A DNA stretch of 64,000 bases from Antedon mediterranea (taxonomy: Eukaryota; Animalia; Echinodermata), in NCBI RefSeq assembly GCF_964355755.1, contig NC_092675.1, positions 4,893,812-4,957,811 on the forward strand. The letters are read 5' to 3'. Numbering within the stretch: the stretch's first letter is position 1; each line of letters begins with the position of its first letter. A program made the position numbers and the translations under genes. The notes below the pieces were generated by a model. The model was not told the DNA's origin. It saw only the letters and a program-made list of their open reading frames with translations, and searched no databases. Shown here one piece after another: positions 3,179 to 56,400 of this stretch.

Positions 3179-4120
3179 TTAAACATGGTTTAATCTAAAA
3201 TTTGTGCTGCCTTGTTCTCCTGTATTTTTACAACATCCAGCCTGAACAATGTTGATCAATTCAGTTCGGAACTGGGATAAAGAAACCGTATAAATAAATG
3301 GATTAAGAGCAAAATTTAATACTACCAAGTCCACTGCAATATATTGTGCAATAAAATCTTTACTTCCAGAAGATATATCTCCATATAAGAAAACAATAAT
3401 TGGCACAAAGCAAACTATATAGGCCGTGCTCACAGCTATGAACACTTTTAGTGTTTTTACGTGTATGGATGATGTCATTTGATTGCTTACATTATTTTTC
3501 ATTTTAACCAATTCGAAAATGATTCTTGTATAAATAAGTACCAGTATTAATATAGTAGATATACATACAACTGCGATTATATTTATTGTAATTTTAAGTG
3601 CTAACTCTTCCTTTTCCTCTCCATCATAAATAGGCCTACATTGGATATTTTGAGTTATAATCTTATATAATATAATTAGCATTATTGGATTAGACAGAAT
3701 ACCAAGAATCCAAGCAGATACCATCATGATTACAGTTCGTTTTACTGTGTAATTAGTTTCAAACCAAAATGGCTTTATAATCGCGAAGTACCTCTCAACC
3801 GAAATAAATAATACATTTACACTAGATGCCGTCGAGAGTGTAAACGTCGCACAGTAAAACCATAGAGTAATCTCTTAGTACAAACAATCAGAAGGGGAGA
3901 CAGGTAATAATGATAATACAAAGAAAAGTAAACATCCTGTCGCATCGATTAATGATTGGTTGAAAATAAACCAGCGTGTAGTTTTACGAATGAAAACAAC
4001 TCGATTAATAATGAGAAGTGCTACAATATTTACGATGAAACCAAGAACGGACAAGGCACAGCCGATGTTGATCAGTGACTCGACCACGTCCAAACTCGCT
4101 TCTGTAACATTCAAATCCAT
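3179..4120 (-). pseudogene. Class A (rhodopsin-like) orphan GPCR interrupted by one in-frame TAA
   Basis: ORFs 3875-4147 and 3179-3727 are in the same frame. Reading through TAA at 3877-3875 gives ...SDCLY*EITLWFYCATFTLSTASSVNVLFISVERYFAIIKPF..., with the TM1 Asn, TM2 SLID, ERY, TM6 CFVP and TM7 NPFIY. ATG at 4120 follows a pyrimidine tract and AG. Confidence 0.8.
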
Positions 4121-13966: not shown

Positions 13967-15312
13967 GATATATAAAAAAAAAACCCTACGCCACATAGTC
14001 ACGTGGTTAGAACAATAGCTTCATCTATCTACTATATTAAACTTACTCAACCGTTTGCACCAATTATTTTCATTAAATGTAATTAGCAAATTGTAACAAA
14101 CTAACAGATTATGGTACCTCTAGATTGGGAGTTTAATCAATTTTTTTTTTATTTAAAAAATAAATTATTGTTTTTATTTTTTATAAAAAAAAAATTAATT
14201 TGAAGATGGGACTTTAAATTTGATATATGTATTTTCTTTTATTTCGGCCACTTCAATCAGGTTATTATATATTAATCATTATTATTAATTTGAAAAAAAA
14301 GATGGTATATTAATTACAGTACAGTATATATTACCAGTCCAGTCCTGATAGGAATTTGGAAGTGTTCTAAACATCAATGTTATTAGATTAATTATTGCTA
14401 AATTAAAGAAAAAGATGGTATTCTACTACGATAACAGTTAAATATTATTACCATTTATTTAGAATAAAGCAATCCTATAATAGGTTTCAGGGATCTAACT
14501 TTTTGTGTTTCTTTTAATTGTAATTAGACCATGGAAGAAAAAAATGAATCAGTTTTTAATGAATGGTTCACAATAACTGTATTGACTAACTTTATTCATT
14601 ACCTCGTGTTAAATATTTATCAAATACGATTATAGATCAGAATCACCTGACATTCAATAGATTTCACGTGAGTTTGTTCCTCTTATCAAAGAATATATAT
14701 ATTATTTGCTATATTATTATTCACAACGTCACATAACTACTGCTGACGTCATCACCTGCAGGTACCAACAAAGTAGTACACTACACTACATTCTACACTG
14801 GTAACAATACAATGCAATAGTTAATAATTGTATTATTAATGTTATATTATGTGACAATAAATTAAATCTTGAATAGAGGTCTGATAATATTATAGTAGAA
14901 AAAACTATTGTGTTTACTACTGTAGATAGAGATTTGCTAAAGAACGTTTAGACAAGACAAGTTTATTACTAGGATCAAAGTCAATTTTCTGATAACATGG
15001 TTTTGTTTTGTGTAAATACACTTAGGCCTACGATTAGAAACTAAATATAGATATGATGTTAACTGTATAATCATACTCTAAAGATTATATTGTTCTCAGT
15101 TCCTTTATATTAAACAACGGCACTCCCTTTGAGGCATACGCTTGCTGTTGTTGCTACATCTTCTGCTATTTCTTCACATTTGGACCGGGACCAGAAAGGG
15201 TACCGTAAACTACAGCCTCCGTTCTTGTTATCATTTTTTTGGTATCCTAAATATATACCTCTGTTTGATTCATCAATTAATTTTCAAATAATCAAGTTTA
15301 TTTTACAAGAAT

Positions 15313-17478
15313 ATGGCAAGTATATTTGTTAAAGAACTAGATGACCGTGTACTGGAGTGTGCTATTTGCATGAACAGATTTAATCGACCGAAAACGCTAC
15401 CATGTCTTCATAGTTTTTGCCAGAAATGTTTGAAGGACTGGGTGGAAAAGAACAATCAGTTAAGTTGTCCCACTTGCATGGATAACTTTGAGATTCCTGA
15501 CGGTGGACTTGAAAGTATTCCCCCAAACACCTTTGTGAATAATCTTCTAGAATATGTAGATCACCTCGAAGGCGGTGAACTTATGTGTTCCTATTGTACA
15601 CTTGCTGCTGTTAAGTTTTGCAAAGACTGCTCTCAAAACTTTTGTGCTACATGCGTTAAAAGTCACAGTGAAGTGGACGTTCTCAAATCACATACCTTAT
15701 ATACGGACGATGAACTCAGAAAATTAACACTAGAACAGCGTCAGTTATTGTCAATGCACTGTAAGAATCACACGGATCAATCCCTTAAATTCTATTGTAA
15801 TACTTGTAAAGAAGCTATCTGCGTCGAATGCATTATCATCGAACATAAAACGTGTCACATTACCGATAATGTTGTAAAGATATTAGATGCATTTGAGGTA
15901 TTCAAGAAAACTGCTGCCGAGTTGATCGATGAAGGGGAAAAACGTGAAACTAAAATTCAAGAGGAGAAGCTGAAGAGGAAGAAGAAGGCTGACCAGCTTA
16001 AATTGGAACGTAGCTTTTGCGAACAAAGAATTAATAGATCCGTGGATGAAGCGATTCTTAAACTACAAGAAGAACGCAAACAGCTTATAGATAGTCTTCA
16101 GACGATGTATGATGGTAAGAAAGTCCCCGTTCTTAAAATGATTGATCAATTTGATGCTGCTAGTAATGATTTTGTACATATAAAGCAGCTTGTTCATCTT
16201 TCTGTCAACAATTCAAACCCGGCGACAGCGTTAGACGCAAAAGATCAACTGTTAGACAAACTAAAGAAAACCGTTCATTCGTACCCAACCGTTGAAGAAC
16301 AAGTTAATGGTGCTCTTTTACATTTTGAAGAGACTCAATCTCTCAAGAAAAGTATTGGACATGTTACTGAAACACTTGAAGTACACAAACTTTTTGAAAT
16401 TAGGAAACAGGATGAAAACATCATTGTTACCAAAAACCAACCATTCTTTGTTGAAATAGCCACTCCAATTTTAGAAAAAGTAGAAGACATTTCAGCATAT
16501 CTGATAACGGTATCTGGAAAGCAAGAAACTCCAGTGGTGTTTCAATATCACGAAAACGGAATTTACCGAGCCGAGTGCAGCTGCTCGGAGCTAAGCGAGT
16601 TACATGTCAAATTTAACGATGTTCTTATAAAGGGATCTCCTTCAGTAATCTGTGTAGAGAACGATGGTTTGGTTCGGACAATCCGTGACTTTGAAAACAT
16701 CGAATTTGAAAACCAACACGGCAAAGCTACAGATGTAATGACTGACGATGGATATCTGTTAGTTTCAATGAATAGTCGGGAAGTTCTGAAGTTTGATTCT
16801 AAAACAGGAAAGCATGTAGATACCATTAACATGCCGCCAAAATGCCACGTTTACATGATGTGTAGAGCCAAGGCAGACGGTTTAATAATATACAGTGACA
16901 GTAGAAATAAATGTGTAACGGTATGTGAAAATGACGGCACTACCATACGATCATTTGGAAAAGGTTTCTTAACGTTTGCCGCAGGCCTTGCTTTGGATGA
17001 GTGTACACGTACTCTGTATGTTGTAGATCGTACTGCCCACTGTGTAGTTAAATTCAATTTCGACAACGGGGAGTTTTTAGAAAAAATTATTTCCAATAAT
17101 GAAGGGGAGTTCTACTTCAATAGACCCTACCGTGCAGCCATGCTTGGCAACGGCATTGTCATAACAGATTGTAGAAACAATCGGCTACAGTTGTTAGATA
17201 AGAACACCAATGTTGTAACAGTTCTTGTGAAACATATTGATAATGATATTAATTTAAAGTGTCCACTTGGTCTAGTAGTTGATGACGATGGGAACATTAT
17301 TGTTTCCGGTCACGGAATGTTACAAGTGTTTAATGGTGATGGAGAGTTTGTTAGAAGAATTGATACTGGAAACGACAATCTTAATATACCGTGTGGTCTA
17401 GCGGTTGTATCATACAGACCTAGACGGGTAGCTGTTGCAAATTATGGCAACAGCTGTGTCAAGATATATAATTATTAA
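15313..17478 (+). CDS. Intronless TRIM-NHL E3 ubiquitin ligase (TRIM2/3/45/56/71-like)
   Basis: 721-aa ORF with RING (CAIC...LPCLHSFCQKC...CPTC), B-box1 (CSYC...CKDC...CATC...H...H), B-box2 (CKNH...FYCNTC...ICVEC...H), coiled coil, degenerate filamin repeat (IKGSP) and NHL repeats (FNRPY, CPLGLVVD, PCGLAV). Confidence 0.93.
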   Translation: MASIFVKELDDRVLECAICMNRFNRPKTLPCLHSFCQKCLKDWVEKNNQLSCPTCMDNFEIPDGGLESIPPNTFVNNLLEYVDHLEGGELMCSYCTLAAVKFCKDCSQNFCATCVKSHSEVDVLKSHTLYTDDELRKLTLEQRQLLSMHCKNHTDQSLKFYCNTCKEAICVECIIIEHKTCHITDNVVKILDAFEVFKKTAAELIDEGEKRETKIQEEKLKRKKKADQLKLERSFCEQRINRSVDEAILKLQEERKQLIDSLQTMYDGKKVPVLKMIDQFDAASNDFVHIKQLVHLSVNNSNPATALDAKDQLLDKLKKTVHSYPTVEEQVNGALLHFEETQSLKKSIGHVTETLEVHKLFEIRKQDENIIVTKNQPFFVEIATPILEKVEDISAYLITVSGKQETPVVFQYHENGIYRAECSCSELSELHVKFNDVLIKGSPSVICVENDGLVRTIRDFENIEFENQHGKATDVMTDDGYLLVSMNSREVLKFDSKTGKHVDTINMPPKCHVYMMCRAKADGLIIYSDSRNKCVTVCENDGTTIRSFGKGFLTFAAGLALDECTRTLYVVDRTAHCVVKFNFDNGEFLEKIISNNEGEFYFNRPYRAAMLGNGIVITDCRNNRLQLLDKNTNVVTVLVKHIDNDINLKCPLGLVVDDDGNIIVSGHGMLQVFNGDGEFVRRIDTGNDNLNIPCGLAVVSYRPRRVAVANYGNSCVKIYNY

Positions 17479-18175: not shown

Positions 18176-18260
18176 TTAGGTGTGACTGAGCTCACTATGT
18201 CGATCGGTTGGTCGGTCGGTAAACAATAACTCATACTTGAGCCATGTATATGGCTTTGTT
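18176..18260 (+). mobile_element. Degenerate mini-HINE fragment
   Basis: gctcactatgtcgatcggttggtcggtcggtaaaca...gccatgtatatggctttgtt matches the copies at 35090 and 57233. Confidence 0.55.
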
Positions 18261-18917
18261 TTCTACCCTAAGTAAGTTCACGTGACCGAATGTCTTCCTT
18301 GAATTAGTTTTGTGGTGAGGTTGTATTCCTCAAATTATGTTATTGTGTTTTTATCAAGAGACACAATGCTCAAAATATTAATTTACATCCGGTTTCAGTT
18401 TTGTTTATTGGAATTTGTCAGACATACCCGGACTGACAACTGAATAACAATACTATATAGATTTGAACCTGGATTTCTATGACGTAAGCTAAACAATTGT
18501 ATTTAACTTAGCTAGCCTTCACTTCTATTGTTTACATAGTTTGAATGCGAGAGAAGATAAAAAAAAAAAACAAAAAAAAAAAAACGTAATGCAAGTTAAA
18601 TTGTAGGCTGTATCAAATCTTCAAACGTTTTTCTCAAGATGATTCTGAGTACATTGTACAGATTATCCTATATTTATATTTCAAAATACAACCGGTAGCA
18701 TGTTGCGATGAAACGATTAGTCTGAAGCTGTTTACCAAATGTTCTAACATGGTCCGGCATGTTTCTTTTTTAAAAGAAAAATTCTCTCTATCATTTCTAT
18801 TGTAAATAACGTTTCATAAAACAAATCTTATGTTGATAGAAAAACCGGATTGATTTGAGTGATACACTTCCGAAACTAAAATGATCTAACTGCTAACTTC
18901 TTAATATATAATAATGC

Positions 18918-20291
18918 TCAATTTCCATTATCAGTATGTATTTCATCTTTGTTTTGTGTATTTTCGTTATTATTATTTAAACTTTCTGTAGATTTATGGA
19001 ACGCTTCCTCACCATGAGTTACAATTAGATAACCAGTGTCATCTTCACTAATAGCAATACTTGAGCATAGCGTCTCGGTACTTTTCATGCTCCACTCCTC
19101 AATAGTTGTATAATTATGCTCACTTCCATCTTCACTAAGCGTAGGCGATATATTGTGATAAATATCTGAGTCCTCATCGTCCGAATCAACACATAGTGAG
19201 AGATAATAATTAGGCTTAGCAGGGAGTTCAAATAATTCTTTTATGTCAGCGTACATATTATCTGAATCATCACTAGTATCACTGGTTTGGGAAGATACAT
19301 CTTCAATATGATGGTATAACCCCTCATCCTGCTTCTTCTCATCGTCATCATCTTCCGACAGTTCATCTATGGTGGAATACCCACATTCATCTGTTTCTGA
19401 TATTCCAGATTCGTTGTTTACTTCATCTTCTTCACTAGTTGCAACAGTGTCATCAGTAGGCGTATTTGCTCCTTCTTCCAATTGTTCAATTGTCTGCTTT
19501 GACTTCATGTCATGGACATTTTGTTCAGTAACGTTGACATTTATTTCGCTATCATCGTTCACCTGCCCATCATTTGTATTTTCTACCATTATTTCAGTAA
19601 GACATAGACCTGTAAATAATTATAATTTGTCATCATTATATCATATTCATAAGGTAAATGTAATATCATTTGGCAAATAAAATTGTGACCAGGATAGCCC
19701 CCAAAAACCAATTACTCAGAGCATTTCCATGGTAACATGAATTTCTGGGCCGAGTAAGTTGTTTCGTATTATTTAATCAACCAAAAAACTGGCAATTCTT
19801 ATATTTAACATTGTCATATAATCAATAGGTACATATTACTTGAAATGACCTGCATTCAAATGGTTTTAAATAAAACTGAAAGTTATATTTTTTTAGTTTA
19901 AAGTTTAGAATACATACTGTACTGCATGCTTAAATAGGCCTATCTAGGATATTAGTGCTTACCGTCGGTTTGATCCGGTAGGTCATCCGACTCATCTTCA
20001 TGCCTAACCGTTTGTTTAATGGTAGTTCGACGAACACAGCATTTAAACACGCCCAATATCACTGAAATTACTGTTGAAATTAGTACCAATATACCAGTAA
20101 ATGTCGCATAATCTGTACGGGAAACAAGGAAGTAAAATAAATATCGTTGTAATCAAACATTACATACGGAAAAGAGAAGTTTTGTTTTAAAATTATAATC
20201 GAAATAAAAAAATAGATTAAAGATACATAGCATGGGATACATTGAACATTATCGACAATAAGGAAATGTTAATTGGCTACCTACCTGACAT
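18918..20291 (-). CDS. Transmembrane-adaptor-like (LAT/PAG-type architecture) single-pass protein, ~282 aa
   Basis: Exons 20291-20285 (ATGTCAG|gtaggt, with an in-frame stop just upstream), 20112-19963 (DYATFTGILVLISTVISVILGVFKCCVRR...QTD|gtaag) and 19609-18918 (GLCLTEI, in frame with the 223-aa acidic ORF). No signal peptide, juxtamembrane CC, seven YxxI/L/V motifs. The first micro-exon is the least certain. Confidence 0.75.
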
Positions 20292-21209
20292 TTTTCAATG
20301 AAGAAAAAGTCATTATAAAATGCATAGGCCTACAGCTACACTTTAACACGTTCTTATGTCCATATTGTATTGTTGATAAAGTGAAATAATCGTTATCACC
20401 AGTTAGACGACATTACCTCTTCCGTTTGAACTGTTGTCTAACAATGACCTCACTTAACTTCCGACGTAGACTTTAAACGACAATTCTTTGAACTAGCACT
20501 ATTATTAAATATTCACTCTTCCCTCCACTGGATCTTCCACTCTTTTGTTGTTGTTTTTTCATGTTTTAGGCATGATCTGAAAGGTCACAATTCGCTGCTA
20601 GTTGCATGTTGCGACCGTCGAGCCAACAGTGAAACCTTGAAAAATACTGAACTACAGGCCTATAATACCTCTCCACATAATACAGTACAAAGTTTAATAA
20701 TCATAACAAAAAAAATCGTTTAGCCTACTTGCGATTTAAATTTCTAGACACTATGCAGTAGCAATTAAGCAATGAAACACATTTCATACACAAAAACCAG
20801 TGATACACACATTGTTATTATTCAATGCCAAAGTTTGTAACACTTTTATATTATGTTAAACTGTTGGACATTATAATTAAAAAATACAACAACATAGCAT
20901 TTATACCTACGGCTTATCATCTAGACACTACTCTAATGACAATTATATAACGAAACATATTTTATACACAGATATATTATTTATACACTGTAGGCCTATT
21001 AGTATTTATTCAACGATTAATTTGACTTAAATTTTAATATTTAACAATTTTATTAGGATGATGACAAAAGCTGTAAACGTCTAACATCTAATATATTACC
21101 ATTATGGACATAAACAAGATTAATAATCAGAATTATATTTTTGATAAGGGCATTATTGATTAATTATCATTATTTGTATTTAATATTAATACAGTACTTT
21201 TATATTATC

Positions 21210-24200
21210 TTAACCCAGAAAGCTCTTAGATGGTATCTCCTTATTTCCCTCAACAGCAACAAGTAGAATCATTTCTTTACTTTCAAGAAGTTTAATGAAA
21301 GCATTAGCCACGTCATCAGTTCTGTAAAAAAAAATCGTTATGTATACATTTTAAAGGAAATATAATACTATATATTAGACTGATGATAAACACAAGGAAA
21401 TAATTATTATATTTGAAATATGATAATACGAACTGAAACATCTTACGATAACTTAGGAGTGGCATCTCGTTTTGCACTGACAAATACTTTTTCACTTTCG
21501 TCGTCAACAACGAAGTCCTCTTTAATAAGCCGTGTAGCAACAAGTGATGGACAAAGAACTTTGATAGTGATTCCATTATCTTTACATTGCACTTGTTCCT
21601 GTTGGACATTAATCATAATATAATATAATTTTATATATTTGAAGCAAACTGATATTGTCACAGACCAGGTTGGATATAAACACGTATATTAAGCATTATC
21701 GGCAACAACATGTTTGTATACGTATCCGGACAACTACCCCCTGGACAATGACCACCTGGACAACTACCACCCGGACAATGACCCCCTAGGACAACTACCA
21801 CCCGGACATTTACCCCCTAGGACAACTATCCTATAGGACAACTACCCAATTAACACAACTCCCACCCGGACAACTACCCCCTAGGACAACTACCCCCTAG
21901 GACCACTACCCCCTAGGACAACTACCCTCTAGGACAACTACCCTCCTAGGATAACTGCTATGCCCCTAGGACAACACCCTCTGAACAACCACACTTATAT
22001 CATGACACCTACACCTTATTAGGTTATAATTACGATCTTGTAAAACTTACTGAACTTCAAAACATAGGGAGAGAGATTGATCTTAAATGAAAGCTTTTGA
22101 ATTTTTTAATATGCGTATCGTCAGCAGTTATTTTACATTAAACGAGAATCGATCAATTATTAAAACGTATTCCAATCTTGAAAAATAAATGGGTGGCTTA
22201 TTTTATTCTTGTGTGACATGAAGATGCCGTATATAAATCTAGGAGCATACAGTTTACCTAGCTGCACCAGTCAATCAAACAGTATTTCATTTGAGATCAA
22301 TCTCTCTCCTTATGTTTTGAAGTTCAGTAAGCTTTACAAGATTGTAATTATAACCTAAGGTGTAGGTGTGGTTGTTCAGAGAGTGTTGTTGTTCTAGAGG
22401 GGTAGCATAGCAGTAAGACTAGAGGGTAGTTGTAAGATAGTGGAGCAGCCCTTTTTATCGATACAATTGGCCCGATTTTGTTCTCTCTTTTCTTTTTCAA
22501 AACAAATGTTTTACCGTAAGAGCTTATTTTATGCTGTTTAATGACATTATACGTTTACTACTACAAGTCCAGTAATAATGGAATATTGGGTTGGCTGTTA
22601 CTACTTCATAGAAGAACTTTAATTAATTTGTTTTTTAAATTTTCTCCCCACTCATGAGAAAATATGACAATAAACGTTTTTAGAACCTAAGAACTTAAAA
22701 AAATAAATATCGCTACAGTTATTACAAATCTTAGGTACGTCGATATTTTAATAATTTCACGTCAAATATTGTTAAATGTATAGTGTGGTACAACGCCCTC
22801 GTAGTCATCTCTTCACACACAATTTGATTTTACAATACAATTGGCACCAAAAGAAGCAGCTTGTTAATTTGGTTACCAATCGTAATTGTCCAAAGCTGTA
22901 GTTGTTCCTAGTGGGTAGCTAGAGAGTAGTTTTCCTAGGGGGTAATTGTCCTAGGGGGTAGTTGTCCTAGAGGGTAGTTGTCCTAGAGGGTAGTTGACCT
23001 AGGGGGTAGTTGTCCTAGAGGGTAATTGTCCTACGCGGGTAGTTGTCCGGGGGTTAGTTGTCCTAGGGGGTAGTTGTCCTAAGAGGATAGTTGTCCTAGG
23101 TGGTAGTTGTCCTAGGAAGGTGATTGTCCAAGGGGTTATTGTCCGGGTGGTAGTTGTCCGGGTGGTAGTTGTCCAGGGGGTAGTTGTCCTAGACCCGTTT
23201 GTATATCCTTGTCAAAATAGTCGATCGGAACAATTTTTTGGGAGATTTATTCACTCATTAAACTACTTCATTATCATTATTGATATAGTAATTAAAAATA
23301 ATTGTTTCCAATGCATGTATAATTGCGTAACATCATGAAAGAATGAATACTGAAAGTAACATATGAATCATACCTGTAGTGCCACAGAGAAGGAGCGTAT
23401 CCCGTGTTTAGTAGCAGTGTAGGCTGCCATGTAAGGAACACACCTTAAACCTAAAACAGTTTAAATGTTAACATAATATCCGTCGAATACTAATCCTCTA
23501 GTAACTGGTGTGGGTTTGTATGAAAACACGGTAAAACATCCAATGTATTGTATTACCGAATATTAGTATGGATCACACTTGGAATGAAGAAGGTCTGTGA
23601 AGGATTTGTCGTACTATTTAGGCTAGGCCTATACTCACTTGCAACCGACGACATATTGACAACAGTTCCACCGTTTCCACCATTCCTAGTTCCCATCATA
23701 TCAATTGCTAGGTAAGTTCCATGCATCACACCTTTCTACAAACAAAAATGATTTTAGTCAGTTCAAGTTGTCTTAGGCTTGGTTCCCACTAGAGACGCAA
23801 CGCAAGGACGTCACGCAACGTTAGTGATTTGACCAATCACAAGCGATGGATTATTCTAACTAGCGCTTGTCATTGGTCAACTCGCTTGCGTCTACGTTCT
23901 TGCGTTGTGTCCTAATGGGAACCACGCTTTAGGGAGCATGACAGCTGATTAGTTTGTTGATCAAGGTGAGAGGGATGGACGGGGAGAAGGTTGAGGGGAT
24001 AATGTTGAACATTTTGGAAAGAATGATTTGGAAAGTTGATAATTGTTATTACTCACCAGGTTTACGTCTATCATGAGAGACCAATTAACCTCATTGACAA
24101 TACCTGCATTATTACAGACAATATCCAGTGTGCCAAAATGTGCCTTAGCCTGTTGAAATGCTTCTGTACAAGAAAAATATTTATTTTTCTGGTTATTGAA

Positions 24201-26201
24201 ATGTTCAAAGCATATACAAAACTTGATTGTAGTGGTAAATGCTTCGTATCTCGAGTGGAAAACTCGCCAGCTCCCCATTTATAAACACGGACATCATATA
24301 TATTTTGTTCACATTAATACACTTTCTGGTATATTTGAAGCTACATGGATGTATATTATATATAAACTACACCATACATATCTAAGCTGCGGTACCATGC
24401 ATATTTAAGCTGCGGTACCATGCTGCTGCACCATGCATATTTAAGCTACCGCGCCATGCATTTTTAAGCTGCTGCACCATGCGTATTTAAGCTGCTGCAC
24501 CATGCGTATTTAAGCTGCTGCACCATGCATATTTAGGCTGTTCACCATGTATATTTAAGCTGCTGCATAAACTTGCCTTTCAACAAAGCTTGTGACGTTA
24601 CGTCACATTTGATGGTAATCGATCGTTCATTTCCAAACTTGTCCTTGATTTCGTCTTCCGTTTTTTTCAAATTGGCTTCGTTGATATCTAAAATAGCTAC
24701 TCCCTGAAAACAGTTAGTACCAAATATTCTGTGAATATTTATTACTTATCCACAACAATATTAAATACACGTACATAGGCCTACATCTATTATATAAATG
24801 TTATCTTTATGTTTTAAAATGTATATTTTATTATCAATCTGTAATTGGTGCATTGCAATGTTGGTTGTAAGAATAAAGAATTAATTAATGCCTAAATCGG
24901 ATTTTTTTCCCTCTGTTTGTAGTGCTTTCTGTCTATGTTTAGACATGTTAGAAAATATGAAAGATTAGCTGTACCTGTAGCCGTGAATTGTGCCTTTCCT
25001 TTATATATATACCGGTAATTTTATAAATTATTCATTGATAATTAAATACCTCATATACCATAATTATTATTTCATATTTTCACTTTTAAGGTCTATGTAG
25101 AACATAGAACAAGCAATCTGAAAATGTTATTATTATGTAAAGAGGCCTGCAAAATATATTAATGACTATTTAATTACAATTCAACTACTTGTATACCGTA
25201 TGGTTAGCCGGTTAGTTGATGTGAAAAGAATTCATTATCATGTTTAGCATACGGTTAAGTACTTTAACCACATTTTCAATGTTTAAAATACAGGATATTA
25301 CCGCATACATTGCTGAATAGCAATATTAAAATACTCGTAGACCCTGCTGCACAGAATGGCGTACCGTACTACAGTATAATGCTTGGTTTATAGCATGGAG
25401 TAAACGTTTATAGACAATCGTTTGTTTATTTTGTTTCAACCTTGAATCAGGAATCATTAAGAATTGTTTCAGTTTGTCAGTAAGCAATACCTGTAGGGGC
25501 TTACTTATACAATCTTACCATTTCATTTAAAAGATATTATTTTATTGTCTACATAGCAAAGATTTGACATCAATAATGTAAAAACAATGTGAAACTATCA
25601 ATTAATAAATTCATATTTTGCATTTTCAAGTTCCATTCAGATTATAGGCGCGGCATCCTGACCATTATTGTATTGCAAGTTCATATAAAGATACGGTTAT
25701 TAAACCTGAATTTAATGGTTAGTAGCGGAACAAATAAGAGAATTAAATAAAGGAGGACTGGAAATAAAACTCTATACAATACGGAACATTAAAAGTGTAA
25801 CAAAAGAACGCAATGCCTGAACAAGAGTGTCGAGATTGAAATATAAAATGCAATTAAAACAGTAAAATGGCGTGCCCAATGTTAAGGTTGGTTCACACAA
25901 GACGCAACGCAATGACGTGTAGATAGCTAAATGCAAGCGATAGTTTAAATCCATCGCAATTGTGATTGTTCAAATCACTCGCGTTGCGCTTCTTATGTCC
26001 TTGCGTTGCGTCTCTAGGGGGACCCAAGCATTAAAAAATGTTATGATGTCATAACTACGCACGTAGTAGTGCTGAGATAATGACGTAATCACCTCATTGA
26101 TTATTTACCTTAGCCTGTTCCTCTAACAGTTTGAAAACGATAGCTTTTCCAATGCCATCGGCACCTCCTGTAACAAGCGCTATCTTCCCAGATACTGCCA
26201 T
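21210..26201 (-). CDS. HPGD: 15-hydroxyprostaglandin dehydrogenase-like SDR (254 aa, 7 exons)
   Basis: Exons 26201-26109 (MAVSGKIALVTGGADGIGKAI), 24703-24577 (GVAILDINE...KCDVT), 24163-24057 (LDIVCNNAGIVNE), 23735-23639 (GGNGGTVVNMSSVA), 23450-23374 (YTATKHG), 21598-21447 (VLCPSLVAT) and 21321-21210. TGxxxGIG, NNAG and YxxxK motifs are present. Exon sizes 93/127/107/97/77 resemble those I recall for vertebrate HPGD. Confidence 0.9.
21721..23197. mobile_element. Foldback/TU-type element with minisatellite-built inverted arms, in HPGD-like intron 5
   Basis: Left arm (ggacaactacccccta)n 21721-21975 and right arm (tagggggtagttgtcc)n ~22885-23197. Non-repetitive inner inverted domain ~21975-22092 pairs with ~22286-22390. 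8-bp TSD tttgtata at 21713-21720 and 23198-23205. Confidence 0.85.
23775..23929. mobile_element. Harbinger-type MITE, family B
   Basis: Imperfect TIR ggcttggttcccactagagacgcaacgcaag / cttgcgttgtgtcctaatgggaaccacgct with TTA-like flanks. Related copies at ~25884-26032 and ~37426-37571. Confidence 0.7.
24374..24568. repeat. 23-bp minisatellite (~8 copies) next to the GC splice donor
   Basis: Unit gcatatttaagctgctgcaccat with variants. Confidence 0.9.
25884..26032. mobile_element. Harbinger-type MITE, family B (inverted relative to the 23775 copy)
   Basis: aggttggttcacacaagacgcaacgcaa...ccttgcgttgcgtctctagggggacccaagc. Confidence 0.65.
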
Positions 26202-42409: not shown

Positions 42410-45400
42410 ATGGACATGAGCATATTTTATATCGTATTCATCTCACAAATATTTGTGTTTATCCATAACGTCACATGTAATTTAGTCCCAGATAAGTCAT
42501 TTCCCAATGTGGAACATTTTAGGGAGAAACGCAAACCAGGCGGGCCAGGAGGTGTTAGGTGCGGACCGGGTGAATTAGTCAAACGATGCAAGTAAGATAT
42601 TGTATTTTATTTAAATTCTCTTACATATTCTATAAGGCGAATACAACCAATAAAGCGCAATTCGTTAACAAAATATTATGTATATCTTAAGCCATGTTTC
42701 TAATTGAAAAGAACGTAACAATTAAATTTCGAACCCCAGTTTTAGAAGTATAAGGTCCGGTTGAAGATGCGGTGATAATGATGTAAATGTAGATGTGGGG
42801 GAATAACCTGTGACTTTCAGCCTAACTGGGCTGAATTGCACACATGTATGGACAGCACATACAATAACTTTCTTCCCCCTTAAGTCCATTAAGCTGCTGC
42901 TCGTTCGTCTGTCCACACCGATATGGGATGAATGGACAGTACACCGGGGTAACCCCCTACTCTTCCGAAAGATTAGAGTGCATACGAGTTAGATGTATAC
43001 ACTGGACCTCTAGGTCCTCAGAGAGGACTTGTTATACCACTAGAAAAATGGTACATGGTCGAGGACCTGTTTTAACCAATTGACTCGACGATAGTTCATC
43101 GATCACTGTAAAGTTTAAGAAAAATATTGCCCAAATACACACCATTTATTTTTACCCAGCAACATAATCCTTTAAACATTTCTGGATCATCCTTGAATGT
43201 CTCATTGCACTTTAAAGCAAAGTGAAAAGTTGCAATCTATATACTAAAACGTTAATATTGTTTCCTGCGTGTGTTATTGTCATTCAGTTTCAGTTCTTAA
43301 AACCAAAATGTTGATTTAGCCTTGTAATACCTCCGGGAAACCCTCAGATCAAACATGGTTTTGTTGGGTGGTAAGGGTTGTGGGGGTGGTAAGGGTTGTG
43401 GGGGTGGTAGTGGTTGTTGGTGGGGATAGTTGTTAAATCTAATAGTTAAACATACATTAAACAAAGATTTTTCATGTAGTTTTTAAAAATGTATTCATCA
43501 GTATTCATCATAGAGTGTTGTACAAAATATTTTCATATTTTACTTCACTATGGTTGTTAGAAAGAGGTTTGGAAAGCAATTAAAAAATAATCTGGCTAAG
43601 AAACAAAGTATTGTTTGTATCACTCCAAAGTCATGAATCGGAAATAATAATGATATGCTCAGCCAATCTTTTAAAAGTAATTAAAACAAGCCCTTAGTGT
43701 GTTAATACAGAAACCAATACGGTATTTCAAAACAGATATATTATTATTATTATGTAAAATTAAAATACAATTCAGCTTCAATTCAAAGTAAAATTAATCT
43801 TTCATAACTGAGTAAAAATAACGTATATTTACTCACTCATTCACCACTCCTCACCCCCAAAAAGAAGCAACCCCAAAAATTGTTGTAGGTGTCCAAATGA
43901 GAGAGCGCGCCCCCCATGGATCCCTCTCCTGTCATGTATGTGTGTGTGTACGATGCTAAACCTTACAAAAGGTACCGTGTAAACATAGGCCTACATAAAT
44001 TAAATTCTATTTTTCAGATATGATGTTGATGACAACCAATATTATCGATGGTTGACACTAGGAGAAAGTACGTAAACACTTTTTGCCATCTTTTATACTT
44101 TTATTTACAGCTTACACATATTTTATTTACATTCAATTTATCTTCAATAGATCGCCCGTCATTTGAAGTAAGCATATTCAACTACGACATAACAAAATCG
44201 CAAGCATCTAACAACTGTCCACAAGGCACACGTTTAGCCGTCATCAACGATGCGTGGATACTAGACGAAGCTGTGGCATCGGTATTTGAAAGTTTTGATC
44301 GAGACACGAAATACTGGGTTGATGTTAACGTAGAACTAGACAATATCGATTTCTTTTTAGAGAGAACAGCATGTACTTGCGTTAGTACTGAATTTGCTTT
44401 AAATGGCGAGGAATCCACAGTCATGGAAGTAAAAAGAGATGAATATCAAATTAAGAAAAAGAGGTCGACTGATAAAAGGATGATGAGAGGAGTTATATGT
44501 CAAAAAGAAGGTAGATTTTATATTAAAACTTTACAGTAGGCCTACATATTATTAAGTTGAATCTAAAATATATTTTATGGTTACGTTTTTATAATATATT
44601 ATTTCACAGAGAAAGTTGTTGTTGAGGTTTTCAAATAAATTGGTGGGATCCTGTTATTTCATGTTGCATATTAAAATTAATGTTGCATTTCTTACAGAGG
44701 GAACTACAGCAAAGCCTACTCAATCAACAAAACATACATCAACTTCCTCCAATCCTAGTAGTTCTTCTTCGTTTAGTATGACACCAACGATGAACCAATC
44801 TGTAAGCCTCCCAGTCATGAACCCAACTGCAGAGCCTACATCATCTTTCGATTGGATTATTTTCTTACTTAGCATCATTGCAGTGACGCTATTACTTGGT
44901 TTATTCCTAGGCTGTGTCATTTGCTGTAGAATTAAGTCGCACCAGAAAAATGTAAACCAGTCCGTAGTCTGTGCTGTTGAACCATCTTCAAAAGGTATTA
45001 TTATACACTGTTAATTGGGGCATAGGGTCACCATAAACTAATCTAATGAGAAACCTAAATTTTCATATTCCTTCTTTCAGAATGTGTAGTATCGGTAATT
45101 CCAACAGCACCACCTGCCTATGAATCTAACGACTACCAAGGCCTGATGAGGAATCCTAAAGTTGACAATGTCCACACGAATCCAGATAAGTCTTTCCCAC
45201 AAGAAGGTACCTATATCTACGAAACACCGATGGAAACACCACGTCTATTTCAGCAACCCGCTGGTATTTACAACGGTAGCAGTGGGTATATGGATATTGA
45301 TGGTCCGACTTATAATAATCATCAAAGTACCGATGAATTCGTTTATGATGAGTTAGACACAAATACTACTCCACCAGAATATAGTTATGCATATGCCGAT

Positions 45401-48123: not shown

Positions 48124-50482
48124 ATGTCACCAATTAAGTACGTTTGTGCAACAATTTACGTATTTGCAATCGTAACAACAAGTCATGAATCACTATTTCA
48201 AAACCAAGAAAGGCTAGCAAACGAAGGAACATTACTTAATAGACAAAAACGAATGGGTGGTGGCAGTTTGATCAAACGATGTTGGTAAGTGTTCCTTTTT
48301 TCATACCGTAAAGAGATTTTTCAAAAATGTTCAAAGGATCCATACGTACACGTAACAAAGATAAATTAGGAATTCATGCAGTGTTTGGCATATAACATCT
48401 ATACACATTTTAGGCCAACTGAATATTTTGAAGTATTATGATGAACTTTAACTATATTAAAATAGCTAAAATTTCTAAAATGAATTTCTGAAAAATTAAA
48501 AGAATCGCCGATATAATGAAAAATGTTATTTTAAAATTAACATTTCAATGTTGGTACTTTACACTAGCTATAACATAATAGTAGTAAAATAAAATAAAAA
48601 TAAAAATAACGTGAAACTTTACCTAAGAGAGACTGTTGTATGTACCTACTCTTGTAACCATTTTTACTATAATTTGTTTTTCAAAGTAAACCTATTTTAG
48701 AGGGATTTCTTCATAATTTTTTCAAAGTTTTACATTAAAATTTACCATAATATTTTTTTATGACAATCGATTCCAATAATTATTATTTCAGGGAGGATGT
48801 AAATCTACAAAATGGTGACCTAACAAGGCAAGACAAATGTATTAAATATACACAGTGTAAGAGTTCATATGAAGTGATTTGTTTATTATACATTTGATTG
48901 TAATATGACACCATGTAAGTCTGCAGTACTGGTACAATTCAATTCATTAATTTATTTTTCAGATGGGTATACATGCTACACTTTTCTACCATCATCAGAA
49001 AATTATGAAAACTATGAAAATGAATGCAATGGCATTGCCGATCAAGGATATGAGCCCGCAAAAATCAACAGCGTCCTCATACTTGACGCCGTCGCTAAAA
49101 TGATACAATACGAAAGAGATGCAGATGAGTATTGGTTGCAGGTCGACCCCACTTTACAGGATGTACCAGATTTTACCGAAGGCTGCTCTGAGTATAACAT
49201 GGACTTTAATGTCATGGACGACGAAAGTACCGTTATAATGATTAAATCAATGGAGTATGAAATAAATAAAAAAAGGCGTAGTCAAGGGAGTCGCGGCTTT
49301 GTATGTCAAAAGTATAGTAAGTGTAGTAATACCAAACTGTCTTCACAGTGAAATCTGTAAAATCATGGATTACAATACTTTTACAGTAACTTACATCAAA
49401 TCAAATTATGTTCACGTACCACGATAGTACCTCATTGGATATTCCATACTATTCAAATGAAATTTAAAAACATACTACAATAAAATGTGATTGTATGATA
49501 AAGCAGTTCTAATTACGTAAATATGCGTCTAGGTTTATATATTTATTTCATTTTGATATAGGGCCGACAACTGAAACGCCTTTTAAACCAACAACTAACA
49601 CACCAATTCGAGAAACTAGTATAGATCGTGACGTAACTGATGATGAACGAGTGACGTCTAAAGCTACTTTGCAGGAGGAGCAAAAAGGTCAAAGCTCATC
49701 TAAAATGTCGGATGCCGTTATTCCAATTTCGATTGCTCTAGGGGTAGCTATCGTCTGCATTGTCATCTTGGTTGTTTTTATATTGTATAGAAGACGGTCA
49801 TCTCAAGAAGGTGTCGCCACTGAATCAGATCAACCAAAGGAACAAAACAATCTAGGTAAACTTTCTTTCTAAATGTCTCTATTGGTACTATCTGAGTTTC
49901 CATTATCTGATACGAAATAATAATAATATAATAATAACAGGCCAATGTTAATACTTTTCACCAATATCACCCATTTTCCACAGATTCATAAAACTCCAAT
50001 AACACATCAATAATTGCCAGTTGCATGCTTTATAGTAGAAAAAATAATAGGCCAATGTTGATACTTTTCACCAATATCACTCATTTTCTACAGATTCACA
50101 AAACTCCAAAAAGAATGAGCCACGCTACACTGAAACAATAAATGGCGGCGATACAAAAGAACCAGACCTTTATTCAAAGTACAGAACTTCTTTACCAGGA
50201 GACTACGCTTATCTCAGTAAAACTGCAACACAAGATCCAGATTCAATTACCGTAGATAATGAGGTTTATTCTGGTGGGCAATACGAATACCCAACACTCC
50301 CAGTACTTGATACTACCAATGCTAAGCCAACTATTGAAGATGATTTAAATGATTCCTCCTACGATAAGCTTGGTCCTTCCTATTATGTTTTAAATCCGAC
50401 AGACGAGAAGAAAGATGATTATATTGAAATAGCTGAAGATCAGGAGTATTCATATCCGTATACTGACGTTGTTCCCAAGTAA
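48124..50482 (+). CDS. Receptor R3: paralog of R2 with ITIM- and ITAM-like tail (~420 aa)
   Basis: Exons 48124-48284 (signal peptide, RQKR, ...LIKRCW), 48792-48856, 48963-49316 (TCYTF...EC...PAKINS.LILD...YWLQV...ESTV...EYEINKKRRS...GFVCQK), 49562-49855 (T-rich stalk, TM VIPISIALGVAIVCIVILVVFILY-RRR) and 50094-50482 (YAYL, YPTL, SSYDKL, YYVL-x9-YIEI, YSYPYTDV). Phases 2/1/1/1. Confidence 0.82.
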
Positions 50483-52484: not shown

Positions 52485-53453
52485 TTATTTAACTATATCT
52501 CTATCTAGATCGACAGTTGAAACTGGATTGCAAACTTGAAATTTTAGCAACAGTTTACGAAAATGTTTATTAAATTGTTTATTTGTAGTGATGTAGATAA
52601 ACGGATTTGCACAAGAGTTGACAAAACCCAAGAGAACTAGGACATTTTCTAAATTCGATTTAGCGTAACGTTCAAATAGTCCAATTGCATGTATAAAGAA
52701 ACACATTTGTTCGGTACTCCAACACATAATGAATGTAACTGTCACAACAAACACAGTTTTCATTATATCTCTCTTTGCCTGGTGGAGTGTAATTGCAGGG
52801 CTATTTATGGAGCTAGTCTTTCTTCTGAATATATTTACTTGTCGCTTTAAAGAACGTATTATTGTATAATTTGCAGAAATCATAACAACAACAGGAATTG
52901 TGTACTTTGTTAGAAAGTTAAAAATACCAATAAAGGTTCGCCAATATTTTCCTGGCCATCTAACTGTACACGTACAGTTATCGAGTACATTTATCCATAT
53001 GTTAAACGTGTTGAAAATGGCGGCTGAAAACCAAACGATAATAACTAAAATCCAGCATCTTGATCGGGAGAAGGTTTGCTTGTGCTTTGCAGGGTGCAAC
53101 ACGGCACTGTACCGATCTAACGTGAGGATCATCAGTAATAGCGAAGAAGCACATATTGATGTCCATAATAAGTAACCGCTAGAAACAAATCGGCAAAAAT
53201 AGATATTATTTACATCATTATACAGCATATGCAGTGGTAGCATGTTTGCAGATGAGATCAAATCAGCAAAGGCTAAACTTACAATAAAAAATGATGTGGA
53301 CGATTTGTTCATGTTTTTATTTTTGTAAATATGAATCACAAGAAGGTTTCCAACAATACCAATTATGGCTAAGATACACTCAGTCACTGTAAACCACGTG
53401 GCGTTGGAGGGTGTTTCTCTTGAATCACATGGCATAGGCGACGTGGAACTCAT
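52485..53453 (-). CDS. Intronless class A GPCR (galanin/allatostatin-receptor-like orphan), 322 aa
   Basis: ATG at 53453 follows an acceptor. GN (TM1), SLAFAD (TM2), C3.25, DRY, TM4 Trp, ECL2 Cys, YTIP (TM5), CWST (TM6), NSCANPFIY (TM7) and helix 8 are present. Confidence 0.92.
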   Translation of the reverse strand: MSSTSPMPCDSRETPSNATWFTVTECILAIIGIVGNLLVIHIYKNKNMNKSSTSFFIVSLAFADLISSANMLPLHMLYNDVNNIYFCRFVSSGYLLWTSICASSLLLMILTLDRYSAVLHPAKHKQTFSRSRCWILVIIVWFSAAIFNTFNIWINVLDNCTCTVRWPGKYWRTFIGIFNFLTKYTIPVVVMISANYTIIRSLKRQVNIFRRKTSSINSPAITLHQAKRDIMKTVFVVTVTFIMCWSTEQMCFFIHAIGLFERYAKSNLENVLVLLGFVNSCANPFIYITTNKQFNKHFRKLLLKFQVCNPVSTVDLDRDIVK

Positions 53454-56400
53454 CTTGTACACTGGAAAATTAAACCAAGATATAATTTACTTTGCTGCTA
53501 TGAAGGTACTATTAGGCCTACAGATAATGTATACGTTAACATTCATTGTGAAGTTATCAATGAAGAGTTGAATCCACAACCGTTAAAATAGAACGGAAAA
53601 ATAGAACATAGGATTTAAAAAAAATAGATAATAGAAAATCGACTGATAGAACGGTTTTCAATGGGATTGTTATAAAAAAAATACTCTCAGTCCTCGATTA
53701 CATAATATAATACTGGTTCAATCTAAAAAATGAATTGCTATCAGACTATATAATGAAACTGTAATTGGAAATGATTTTAACTACATGCTACTTATACAAC
53801 AAATTTAAAATTAGATAGGCCTACTAGAAAATCCTCAGGTAATCAGATCATCAGATTGCCTTAAAAAAATGAAAAATAACTTACCTACTCTCAAGTTCAC
53901 AGTTACGTGGATATATAGCTAATGAAATCAAAATCCTCTCATACGTTTAAAAGCCTACTAATACATAATATTATTATTATTTTATGATAGTCTATAATAT
54001 TTTACTACTATTTTGTAGTAGTTTTGAAATATGTTTTATGCCATATATCAAGATACGGTACTTTATATTTTTTTATTGGTAAAAACATTTTTTGAACTAA
54101 AGACTGACAATAAACATCTTTTTTTCATAACATCGTTTTTAAGATAATGTTTCACACCATATTTGTTTACTGTTTAAAACATAAAAAAACATGATTATTT
54201 TAAAGGATACGGTAGCCCCGGATTAAAATCGCTTATAAACCTTTGCAACAGCTACTACACTCAGTGCTTAGTATTTAGAGTTACAAAATAAGCAAGGAAT
54301 TATAATCTTTCAAGGAGTTTTGCATCATAATAACACCAAAAGTGTGTAATATAAATGTAATCGCTGCCAACATATAGAGTAGACTTACGTTTTATGCTTG
54401 TTAAATTATACTGTATATCAGCAAGACTTTAAACTCTAAACCACCCAGTGATAATGCTGTAATACAAATAAAATGTGTCGGTACCGGTATAAAAAAAAGT
54501 GAACGACAGCCAAGTTGCATACAATTTTAAGTTTGGTAGTCATCTTTGATTGTCATGTCTTTGATCAGCAAGAGACGAGACAGTGATCATTCCTCTTAAG
54601 CCCAATGAAGAATGGGTGGCAAATGGCCAGGTCCGCTAAAGGCCGAATGGCAACCGGCCAGGAGGAGGCAACGAGAGAAAATTATACATTAACACGGGGC
54701 CTACAATTGGCCTTTTTTTCTTTCTCATCCAAACGTTTCCGGTTTGCGATTCTGTTTCTGCTTTACTTGGTACATTGTAGGCCTACTTTTTACATGTTGT
54801 ACTTTTTATATTAAATTCAAATTAATGCATGTACTATTATATGTTTACTGTTGCCAGCTTATATTAATATTCACCCAGTTGTTTCAAGCTCCATTTATGG
54901 AAAACTGTATTTACAAGGCATTTTATTCATTCTCACATTATTAATACAGTTATATGGCCGTATTAAGAAAACAGCTTTGGGATGTCCCCTTAATCATTGA
55001 CATATTTCCCCTCGTTAGTTTTACAGCAAAAAGTCCCTTGATAGGAGTGTCCAAGCGAGGGGTTCCAATTAAAGCGTAAATGTATCAGCGTTGACTAACA
55101 TGGTATTTGTTTTGAAACATTTAGAAAACGAAACATAAGCTTAATCGAAATAAAATTAAATTAAACTTTTAGGTTCCGTAAATACACAACGTTTCATATT
55201 CCCTGTCTTCCTCTCTTGATGACCTTGATTATTTCAATTTATTTTTTATGACAAATCAAACTTTTTGATATCGAAAATAAAATTTTGATTGAGGTACCAC
55301 ATTTAGGGGTCAGTTTCTATTTTATTCAAGGTCTTTATGTATTTTTAGTGATAGTATTCAGTTCTGGAAAACCCTCCTTTGTCTCATAATCAACCAAGAA
55401 GGTACACATTATAATATTAAAAAGTTAGGTAAACTTTCTTTCCTTACACATGGATTACATTTTAAGATAAGTTAATTCCTTACTGTCACGTAATGCATTA
55501 TCCTGCGCATTAAATTTGCAATAAATGTGAATAACAATTTAATTCATCACTTTGACTAATTATAGGTGATATTTGTGATTTTACTGGCATTTAATTTAAA
55601 AAGACATAAAAACGCAACATGTACGGTATGTCAAATAATGCATGAGGTCGAACAAAAACGTTGACTCCATACTTATCAAGCATAATGTTGAATTGTCTAT
55701 TGTGTTTGAGAATAATTTATATACAGGCATGAAATTACATGACCCACATTATATTCTTTTTTTATGGTATGATGACGTCATCAAAATCAAACTGAAGATG
55801 ACAATTTCGAAAGATAATTGTCAGAACAAAAACTATTAAAATTTGAAGGAATATGGTAAACGTATTTTCTTAACTTATTTATTAATTTCGTTTTCTTTAG
55901 TAGGGTGGCCCTCTCAGTAAAAAAAAATAAACTAAACGTAAACTAAAACTGAAGAATGTTCTTATACAATGTTACTCAATTTGATTTTTTTGTAATGGTC
56001 TCATCTAATAACCGCATGCCAGTACGGTAACTCATGAATAGGCCTATACATACGTGAAACGGTTAATTATTGGTTTATTTATATATTAATAATAAAGGAC
56101 ACGAATAAGGAAAAGAAACACCAGACGGTGGCGAGATGGAATCAGCTTGGGGAGGCCTTCGCCCTGTGTTGATACAACAAGAAACACAAAGTATCTTGCA
56201 ACTTCAAATTATATGTATTTATTATATTAATATGTATGGGTGCTGAATTACGAATATTAATTGTTTAATGTATCAGCTTCAATTTTAGGCAGACCGTTTG
56301 TCACCGTTAGTAGGCCTACAGTAAATATATTACGTAATGTCAATATTATGTCTGTGTCAATTAGTTTAGATTGGCGTCAATAAGAATATTTCAATTTACT

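What the first reader, a model, noticed from the sequence alone, without database searches (positions are those of the whole stretch)
18918..20291. LAT/PAG-like palmitoylated transmembrane adaptor architecture in an invertebrate
Seen: MSDY, one TM, KCCVRR, then a ~250-aa acidic tail. Seven of its eight tyrosines sit in YxxI/L/V motifs (YSTI, YHHI, YADI, YLSL, YHNI, YTTI, YLIV), mostly preceded by D/E. Four are chained 11-12 residues apart (relaxed ITAM spacing), and TGYLIV fits the ITSM consensus TxYxxV/I. Known: this layout (type III, juxtamembrane Cys for palmitoylation, multi-Tyr disordered tail) defines the raft adaptors LAT, NTAL, PAG and LIME, described mainly in vertebrates. Inference: a convergent or deeply homologous adaptor that sequence-similarity annotation would miss.
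Basis: partly seen in the sequence, partly recalled or inferred. Interest (0 to 1): 0.8.

Follow-up and report, generated by a model that had tools for sequence, protein, structure and literature searches.

The report
Feather-star PAG-like membrane docking protein
This is a real three-exon feather-star gene for a small protein with one predicted membrane anchor, almost nothing outside the cell and a long acidic tail whose tyrosine motifs are kept in a second feather star, so it likely works as a docking platform for signalling enzymes like the vertebrate adaptor PAG, although it shows no detectable kinship to it.

Summary
Observation confirmed. Three GT-AG exons give a 282-aa protein identical to an uncharacterised Antedon mediterranea RefSeq model. 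An apparent RNA contig's length and depth fit exactly this splicing, with an in-frame stop just before the ATG and about 200 bp to the upstream gene's transcript, so no ectodomain exon is evident (inferred). The Anneissia japonica orthologue also lacks an ectodomain and keeps 8 of 8 tail tyrosines and 7 of 7 YxxI/L/V motifs (69% identity at motifs, 33% elsewhere). Charge asymmetry predicts a cytoplasmic tail. The layout matches PAG/Cbp best, LAT poorly: no conserved Grb2 YxN, no CxxC (CC/CxC instead), the ITSM is not conserved, and the ITAM-like spacers are long. No sequence homology to any vertebrate adaptor or non-crinoid protein was found. Best reading: an independently evolved transmembrane adaptor, likely docking Src-family, SHP2 or Csk SH2 domains. 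Phosphorylation, palmitoylation and partners are untested. The scan noted similar architectures before in a sea urchin and in arthropods.

The parts
20285..20522 (-). Exon 1: 5' UTR plus ATG TCA G (CDS 20291-20285); in-frame TGA at 20297-20295; four upstream ATGs. The 5' limit is where the RNA contig is inferred to end, not a mapped start
20113..20284 (-). Intron 1, GT-AG, 172 nt, phase 1 (splits the Asp3 codon); the two Anneissia isoforms diverge at the same residue
19963..20112 (-). Exon 2 (150 nt): membrane anchor, dicysteine, basic cluster
20045..20107 (-). Predicted transmembrane signal-anchor, residues 5-25, no charged residue; flank charge -1 N-terminal, +5 C-terminal (predicted N-out, tail cytoplasmic)
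20036..20041 (-). Juxtamembrane Cys27-Cys28, candidate palmitoylation sites (CxC in the orthologue; Cys28 aligned)
   Evidence: palmitoylation not tested
19610..19962 (-). Intron 2, GT-AG, 353 nt, phase 1
18918..19609 (-). Exon 3 coding part: acidic tail, predicted disordered, ending in TGA
19368..19379 (-). Y130 YSTI, conserved; top 2% for human Src SH2 and SHP2 C-SH2 matrices in both species
19305..19316 (-). Y151 YHHI (YHRI); top 5% for Src kinase and Src SH2 matrices in both species
19242..19253 (-). Y172 YADI (YAVI, a full ITIM in the orthologue); top 5% for Src SH2 and SHP2 C-SH2 in both
19194..19208 (-). Y187-Y188 YYLSL, invariant, at the end of the well-kept linker from Y172
19149..19160 (-). 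Y203 YHNI (YHRI); the only YxN, not conserved
19101..19112 (-). Y219 YTTI, invariant through +6; top 5% Src SH2 in both
19020..19031 (-). Y246 YLIV (YLVI), Gly at -1 in both; resembles the LAT Y132 YLVV PLC-gamma site; ITSM match not conserved
18595..18917 (-). 3' UTR covered by the same apparent RNA contig (may run further; AATAAA at 18409)

Best explanation
The gene encodes a 282-residue feather-star protein with a four-residue N-terminus, one predicted membrane anchor and an acidic tail carrying seven conserved YxxI/L/V motifs, which likely acts as a PAG-like transmembrane adaptor. Shown: gene model, orthologue, motif conservation, lack of a catalytic or ligand-binding domain. Predicted: type III topology, disorder, and S-palmitoylation of the juxtamembrane cysteines. 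Inferred mechanism: having no ligand-binding part, it would be phosphorylated by Src-family kinases after a neighbouring receptor is engaged. Four sites (Y130, Y151, Y172, Y219) would then hold Src-type SH2 domains, three of them (Y130, Y172, Y219) SHP2- or Csk-type SH2 domains, and the two YLx-hydrophobic sites (Y188, Y246) possibly PLC-gamma. The likely net effect is to tune or damp Src-family signalling at the membrane. It likely arose independently of the vertebrate adaptors.
For: Protein identical to a RefSeq model; orthologue with the same layout, two isoforms with 4- and 11-residue N-termini. RNA-like contig length and depth fit the three-exon model to the decimal (31.1 and 45.6 predicted and observed) and not three alternatives; the same run fits splicing of the upstream gene (75.0 vs 74.9). 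8 of 8 tyrosines and 7 of 7 hydrophobic +3 residues kept; identity 34/49 at motifs vs 67/202 elsewhere in the tail (p=7e-6) and 37/87 elsewhere in the core (p=0.004). Flank charges -1/+5 and -1/+4; sequons at chance level, none shared. pLDDT <50 for residues 30-282. The same four sites rank above the 95th percentile for human Src SH2 in both species, and none of the orthologue's other 10 tyrosines do. The PAG description matches point by point: no signal sequence, uncharged 20-aa anchor, dicysteine then basic cluster, pI 4.4 (here 4.05-4.1), 9 of 10 tyrosines in YxxV/L/I, ITAM-like pairs with long spacers. Language-model neighbours of both orthologues include vaccinia A36, SCIMP, LIME1 and GAPT clusters, alongside Opalin and Stannin (0.81-0.91; leads only).
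Against: No functional data. Only two species, one RNA-like run from one study, and the splice joints were inferred from arithmetic rather than listed. No CxxC; no PAG-like proline-rich SH3 motifs (Pro under 2%). The SH2 matrices are human and driven largely by the +3 residue, so partly circular. Only Y151 ranks in the top 5% for Src kinase in both species; Y188 and Y246 score poorly for Src SH2 in Antedon (64th, 42nd percentile). No Csk matrix was available. YxxI/L/V also serves as a trafficking signal (recalled). Atlas scores near 0.9 occur for 4-10% of shuffled proteins.
Confidence: 0.68

Rival explanations
1. An activating ITAM-type or LAT-type adaptor: the chained tyrosines Y172-Y188-Y203-Y219 would recruit a Syk-like tandem-SH2 kinase and PLC-gamma.
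For: Spacers stay at 11-13 in both species and the Y172-Y188 linker is highly conserved with a fixed 12-residue spacer. GYLIV/GYLVI resembles LAT G131-Y132 YLVV. PAG's long-spaced pairs bound ZAP70/Syk SH2 domains in vitro, though no direct interaction was seen in cells.
Against: Spacers exceed the canonical 6-8 (recalled) and two of three change length; no charged residue in the anchor to pair with a receptor; no conserved Grb2 YxN or YxxM.
Confidence: 0.12
2. The motifs are sorting signals for clathrin adaptor complexes, and the protein is a trafficking chaperone or endosomal membrane protein.
For: YxxI/L/V is also the sorting consensus, and two motifs have Gly at -1 as in lysosomal signals (recalled; sequence).
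Against: Seven motifs lie 100-220 residues from the membrane; +1 residues (S, A, T, H, L) are identical at 7 of 7 sites and acidic -3 residues are largely kept, as expected for kinase and SH2 recognition; no conserved dileucine signal.
Confidence: 0.08
3. A short isoform or ectodomain-less descendant of an ordinary type I receptor gene, whose multi-tyrosine tail is simply inherited. As an account of origin this is compatible with the best explanation; as an account of the main product it is not.
For: The anchor exon is flanked by phase-1 introns; a cluster of apparent type I receptor genes with tyrosine-rich tails lies 10-41 kb away; Anneissia has two first exons.
Against: In-frame stop two codons before the ATG; the upstream dehydrogenase-like gene ends in its own stop and its contig ends 200 bp from this gene's contig; no longer form among 7,989 candidates of 525-2000 aa (weak evidence); no similarity to the neighbours beyond a TM-level match (best profile E 0.57 among 1,028 window segments, blastp E 0.044).
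Confidence: 0.08
4. The hydrophobic segment is a cleaved signal peptide or type II anchor, and the tail is an extracellular acidic (for example skeletal-matrix) protein with sulfated tyrosines.
For: Very acidic, Ser/Thr-rich tail with tyrosines in acidic context; acidic matrix proteins exist in echinoderms (recalled).
Against: Charges flank the segment the wrong way round in both species; 4 sequons each against 4.1-4.2 expected, none shared; sulfation needs no +3 hydrophobic residue (recalled), yet 7 of 7 keep one.
Confidence: 0.04

Closest known systems
PAG1/Cbp (vertebrate raft adaptor; PMC2213442, PMC3492796, passages read)
   Same: No signal peptide, short N-terminus, uncharged ~20-aa anchor, two juxtamembrane cysteines then basic residues, very acidic tail, nearly all tyrosines in YxxV/L/I, ITAM-like pairs with long spacers; YSTI resembles the Csk site YSSV.
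   Different: CC or CxC instead of CxxC; no proline-rich SH3 motifs; shorter tail (251 vs 397 aa); no detectable sequence homology; Csk binding untested.
LAT and NTAL/LAT2 (PMC3342071, passages read)
   Same: Overall layout; GYLIV/GYLVI resembles LAT's YLVV PLC-gamma site.
   Different: No conserved Grb2 YxN motif (NTAL has five), no CxxC, no homology detected.
LIME1, SCIMP, GAPT, SIT and other transmembrane adaptors
   Same: Short ectodomain, one anchor, tyrosine-motif tail; SCIMP, GAPT and LIME1 clusters are among the language-model neighbours.
   Different: Scores under 0.9 are leads only; no profile match; no extracellular cysteine for SIT-type dimers.
Vaccinia A36 (abstract starts of PMC10883800, PMC9333988 in a search listing)
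   Same: Top language-model neighbour of both orthologues (0.89, 0.91); integral membrane protein phosphorylated by Src/Abl that recruits SH2 adaptors.
   Different: Viral; recruits Nck and Grb2; 157-159 shared features, below the level typical of family members; no Pfam match.
RefSeq XP_071952617.1 (Antedon mediterranea) and XP_033100105.1/XP_033100104.1 (Anneissia japonica LOC117103626)
   Same: The protein itself and its orthologue.
   Different: Annotated only as uncharacterized.

Membership tests
Transmembrane adaptor proteins (architectural class) | Extracellular part of only a few residues | tested here: met
   4 residues in Antedon, 4 or 11 in Anneissia; upstream in-frame stop; topology predicted from flank charge
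Transmembrane adaptor proteins (architectural class) | Single transmembrane segment | tested here: met
   One hydrophobic peak; one confident helix
Transmembrane adaptor proteins (architectural class) | Non-catalytic cytoplasmic tail with several tyrosine motifs | tested here: met
   No credible Pfam or PDB match, predicted disorder, 7 of 7 motifs conserved
Transmembrane adaptor proteins (architectural class) | Phosphorylated by Src/Syk kinases and recruits SH2 proteins | not testable with these tools
   Only matrix scores from human domains
Palmitoylated raft adaptors (LAT, NTAL, PAG, LIME) | Juxtamembrane CxxC motif | tested here: not met
   CC in Antedon, CxC in Anneissia; definition
Palmitoylated raft adaptors (LAT, NTAL, PAG, LIME) | Palmitoylation and raft location | not testable with these tools
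   Two juxtamembrane cysteines in both species make it plausible
LAT, NTAL, PAG, LIME as homology families | Sequence match to family profiles or members | tested here: not met
   No such Pfam family listed at E<=10 for 3 of 3 proteins; profile finds only the two crinoid proteins among 1.84 billion and among 3,380 candidates. Low-complexity tails limit sensitivity.
LAT/NTAL | Multiple Grb2-binding YxN motifs | tested here: not met
   One in Antedon, none in the Anneissia tail
PAG/Cbp | Csk-binding site | tested here: inconclusive
   YSTI, YTTI, YADI/YAVI resemble YSSV; no Csk matrix or assay
PAG/Cbp | Proline-rich SH3-binding segments | tested here: not met
   One PxxP in Antedon, none in Anneissia
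ITAM adaptors (CD3-zeta, FcR-gamma, DAP12) | Charged residue in the anchor and canonical ITAM spacing (both recalled) | tested here: not met
   No charged anchor residue; spacers 11-13 or longer
ITSM-bearing proteins | Conserved TxYxxV/I | tested here: not met
   Present in Antedon only

The most novel reading that the evidence does not exclude
An echinoderm functional counterpart of PAG/Cbp: a palmitoylated, ectodomain-less adaptor that recruits Csk and SHP2 to restrain Src-family signalling beside invertebrate immune-type receptors (perhaps the tyrosine-rich receptor cluster nearby), showing that receptor-independent membrane adaptors arose outside vertebrates, by convergence or from a deuterostome ancestor whose sequence trace is lost.
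Probability: 0.3. Interest if true: 0.75.

Novelty: new variant of a known kind. Interest (0 to 1): 0.5.

Why it matters
The 14 transmembrane adaptors listed in PMC5033326 are proteins of mammalian immunoreceptor signalling, and they share little sequence even with each other (LAT vs NTAL), so homology searches cannot say whether invertebrates have them. [quoted passage not shown] This gene gives a concrete, conserved invertebrate candidate with defined tyrosines and cysteines to mutate. That makes the origin of adaptor-based phosphotyrosine signalling directly testable. It also suggests mining invertebrate proteomes by architecture instead of similarity.

Tried and rejected
No whole genome is held for this window, so paralogues and the presence of Src, Csk, SHP2 and Syk genes in this genome were not checked. 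No run is on record as RNA; X1 was judged RNA from its exon-shaped cover. The candidate's splice joints were not among the joints shown (70 rows hidden), so splicing rests on contig length and depth arithmetic plus the RefSeq models. Longer fused forms: none at E<=10 (weak). Deeper homologues: none. PDB sequences: one chance hit, E 1.1. Pfam: only sub-threshold unrelated hits. Atlas structure search and the AlphaFold model are uninformative beyond disorder, so no fold search was run. Homology to the neighbouring receptor cluster was tested and not found. Alternative first exons: 43 GT donors between 20113 and 21330 were listed; none gave an ATG-led frame resembling an ectodomain. ITSM and Grb2 readings rejected on the orthologue. 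The Grb2 matrix was not scored; the YxN rule was used. YSTIDEL resembles the CagA EPIYA-C motif printed in PMC6953880, a lead only. No complex prediction was sent: no crinoid SH2 partner was at hand. PMC4861716 gave nothing relevant. Literature searches listed no paper on this gene or on an invertebrate transmembrane adaptor by title or abstract start; the library lacks most subscription journals.

Full report
Observation. The window is AT-rich animal DNA. On the minus strand, three exons (20291-20285, 20112-19963, 19609-18918) join at GT-AG, phase-1 introns into a 282-residue protein: MSDY, a 21-residue hydrophobic stretch, KCCVRR and a 251-residue tail with net charge -58 (a first attempt with wrong boundaries was corrected). 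Seven of eight tail tyrosines have I/L/V at +3, against p=2e-5 in 100,000 shuffles of the tail (motif class chosen after the fact). A search with exon 3 returned 2 proteins among 470 candidates: an identical 282-aa Antedon mediterranea RefSeq model (XP_071952617.1) and an Anneissia japonica protein, LOC117103626, 45% identical. Both are named uncharacterized.

Is there a hidden ectodomain? Five runs hold the stretch, none on record as RNA; four were laid. DNA-like runs X2-X4 (one sample) give contigs that run unspliced from 18595 to 20224. Run X1 has a 1,428-nt contig that aligns over 18595-19607 and leaves 390 letters. These equal 2 + 150 (exon 2) + 238, and placing the 238 at 20285-20522 predicts bin depths of 31.1 and 45.6, exactly as observed; three other placements do not fit. 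The same run fits splicing of the upstream gene (75.0 predicted, 74.9 observed; 154 unaligned letters against a 152-nt exon), so X1 behaves as RNA. In that transcript an in-frame TGA lies two codons before the ATG, and the upstream dehydrogenase-like gene (Pfam adh_short on one exon) ends in its own stop, its contig ending 200 bp away. The two Anneissia isoforms differ only before the Asp where Antedon intron 1 falls, with N-termini of 4 and 11 residues. No longer form was found among 7,989 candidates of 525-2000 aa (weak).

Topology. Flank charges are -1/+5 in Antedon and -1/+4 in Anneissia, the anchors hold no charged residue, and tail sequons number 4 in each against 4.1-4.2 expected, none shared. 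This predicts an N-out signal anchor with a cytoplasmic tail and argues against a secreted acidic protein. AlphaFold on the two-sequence alignment gives one helix and pLDDT under 50 for residues 30-282; charge-hydropathy also places the tail in the disordered range.

Conservation. All 8 Antedon tail tyrosines align with tyrosines in Anneissia; all 7 motifs keep a hydrophobic +3 residue and an identical +1 residue. Identity is 34 of 49 in the motif windows (-1 to +5, tyrosine included), 67 of 202 in the rest of the tail (p=7e-6) and 37 of 87 in the rest of the core (p=0.004).

Likely partners. I scored every tail tyrosine with published human matrices (PMC10065799; supplement 2 part 1 and supplement 6 parts 1-2 read) against composition-matched random peptides. 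For Src SH2, Y130, Y151, Y172 and Y219 rank at the 96.7-99.8th percentile and their orthologues at 95.2-99.0; none of the other 4 Antedon or 10 Anneissia tyrosines reaches 95. For SHP2 C-SH2, Y130, Y172, Y219 rank 96.7-98.4 (orthologues 98.1, 98.6, 94.5). For Src kinase only Y151 is above 95 in both species. Y188 and Y246 fit Src SH2 poorly; Y246 with Gly at -1 resembles LAT Y132 YLVV, the PLC-gamma site (passages of PMC3342071 and PMC8965820). The matrices reward the +3 residue heavily, so this is only partly independent of the motif count.

Mechanism. With no ligand-binding or catalytic part, the simplest model is a transmembrane adaptor. Inferred steps: palmitoylation at the juxtamembrane cysteines; phosphorylation by Src-family kinases downstream of another receptor; docking of Src-type, SHP2 or Csk SH2 domains, which would tune or damp signalling. 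Confidence is about 0.68 for an SH2 scaffold and about 0.3 for the specific PAG-like Csk/SHP2 role. Rivals are an ITAM/LAT-type activator (0.12), sorting signals (0.08), a short form of an ordinary receptor (0.08) and an extracellular acidic protein (0.04).

Comparison. The original PAG description (passages of PMC2213442) reads almost as a description of this protein: type III, uncharged 20-aa anchor, dicysteine followed by basic residues, pI 4.4 (here 4.05-4.1), 9 of 10 tyrosines in YxxV/L/I, ITAM-like pairs with long spacers. PAG has four Src SH2 sites and a Csk site YSSV (passages of PMC3492796). It differs in CxxC and proline-rich segments. LAT/NTAL differ in their Grb2 motifs; LIME also has CxxC (passages of PMC2194117). 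Membership by homology fails: no adaptor Pfam family at E<=10, and a profile finds only the two crinoid proteins among 1.84 billion representatives and among 3,380 candidates. Language-model neighbours of both orthologues are vaccinia A36, SCIMP, Opalin, GAPT, LIME1 and Stannin (0.79-0.91), which the tool rates as leads; they fit shared architecture, not kinship. So it works like a transmembrane adaptor, but is not filed as LAT, PAG, NTAL or LIME.

Novelty. ITAM-bearing receptors with ectodomains are known in invertebrates (oyster example, passages of PMC11999971). Seven searches (listings and abstract starts only) showed no paper on this gene or on an ectodomain-less invertebrate adaptor, in a library that lacks most subscription journals. 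Passages of PMC5033326, PMC8666445 and PMC6953880 were also read. The scan has noted similar architectures in a sea urchin (with a short outer stalk) and in arthropods, with no sequence look-alike to this protein; those notes are unchecked, and they suggest the design recurs. Verdict: real, conserved, new variant of a known kind; interest 0.5.

Noticed in passing
window 29000-61400, + strand: Cluster of several apparent type I receptor genes: cysteine-containing ectodomain exons without a Pfam match (44033-44539 and 48878-49351 are 35% identical, E 3e-14), Ser/Thr/Pro stalk plus anchor exons (32562, 44595, 49513) and tyrosine-rich tail exons (35298, 45059, 50051, 60446). One anchor is followed by CVICC. 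No homology to the candidate detected.
   Followed up: partly
window 15292-17478, + strand: Single-ORF RING, B-box, NHL (TRIM-NHL) gene convergent with the candidate; low patchy cover in run X1.
   Followed up: no
window about 20723-24280, - strand: Short-chain dehydrogenase-like gene directly upstream; its contig ends 200 bp from the candidate's 5' end.
   Followed up: partly
window 20413-20313, - strand: Four upstream ATGs in the inferred 5' UTR; two open out-of-frame ORFs (36 and 32 aa) that overlap the main start, a possible translational control.
   Followed up: no
window 3179-3874 and 52485-53486, - strand: Two rhodopsin-family GPCR reading frames.
   Followed up: no
window about 18200-18500 and 21700-24200: High-copy interspersed repeats and a degenerate tandem array inside and near these genes, seen as very high contig depth.
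   Followed up: no
window 18935: Run X1 differs at one coding base in exon 3 (Thr278 to Pro), outside the conserved motifs.
   Followed up: no
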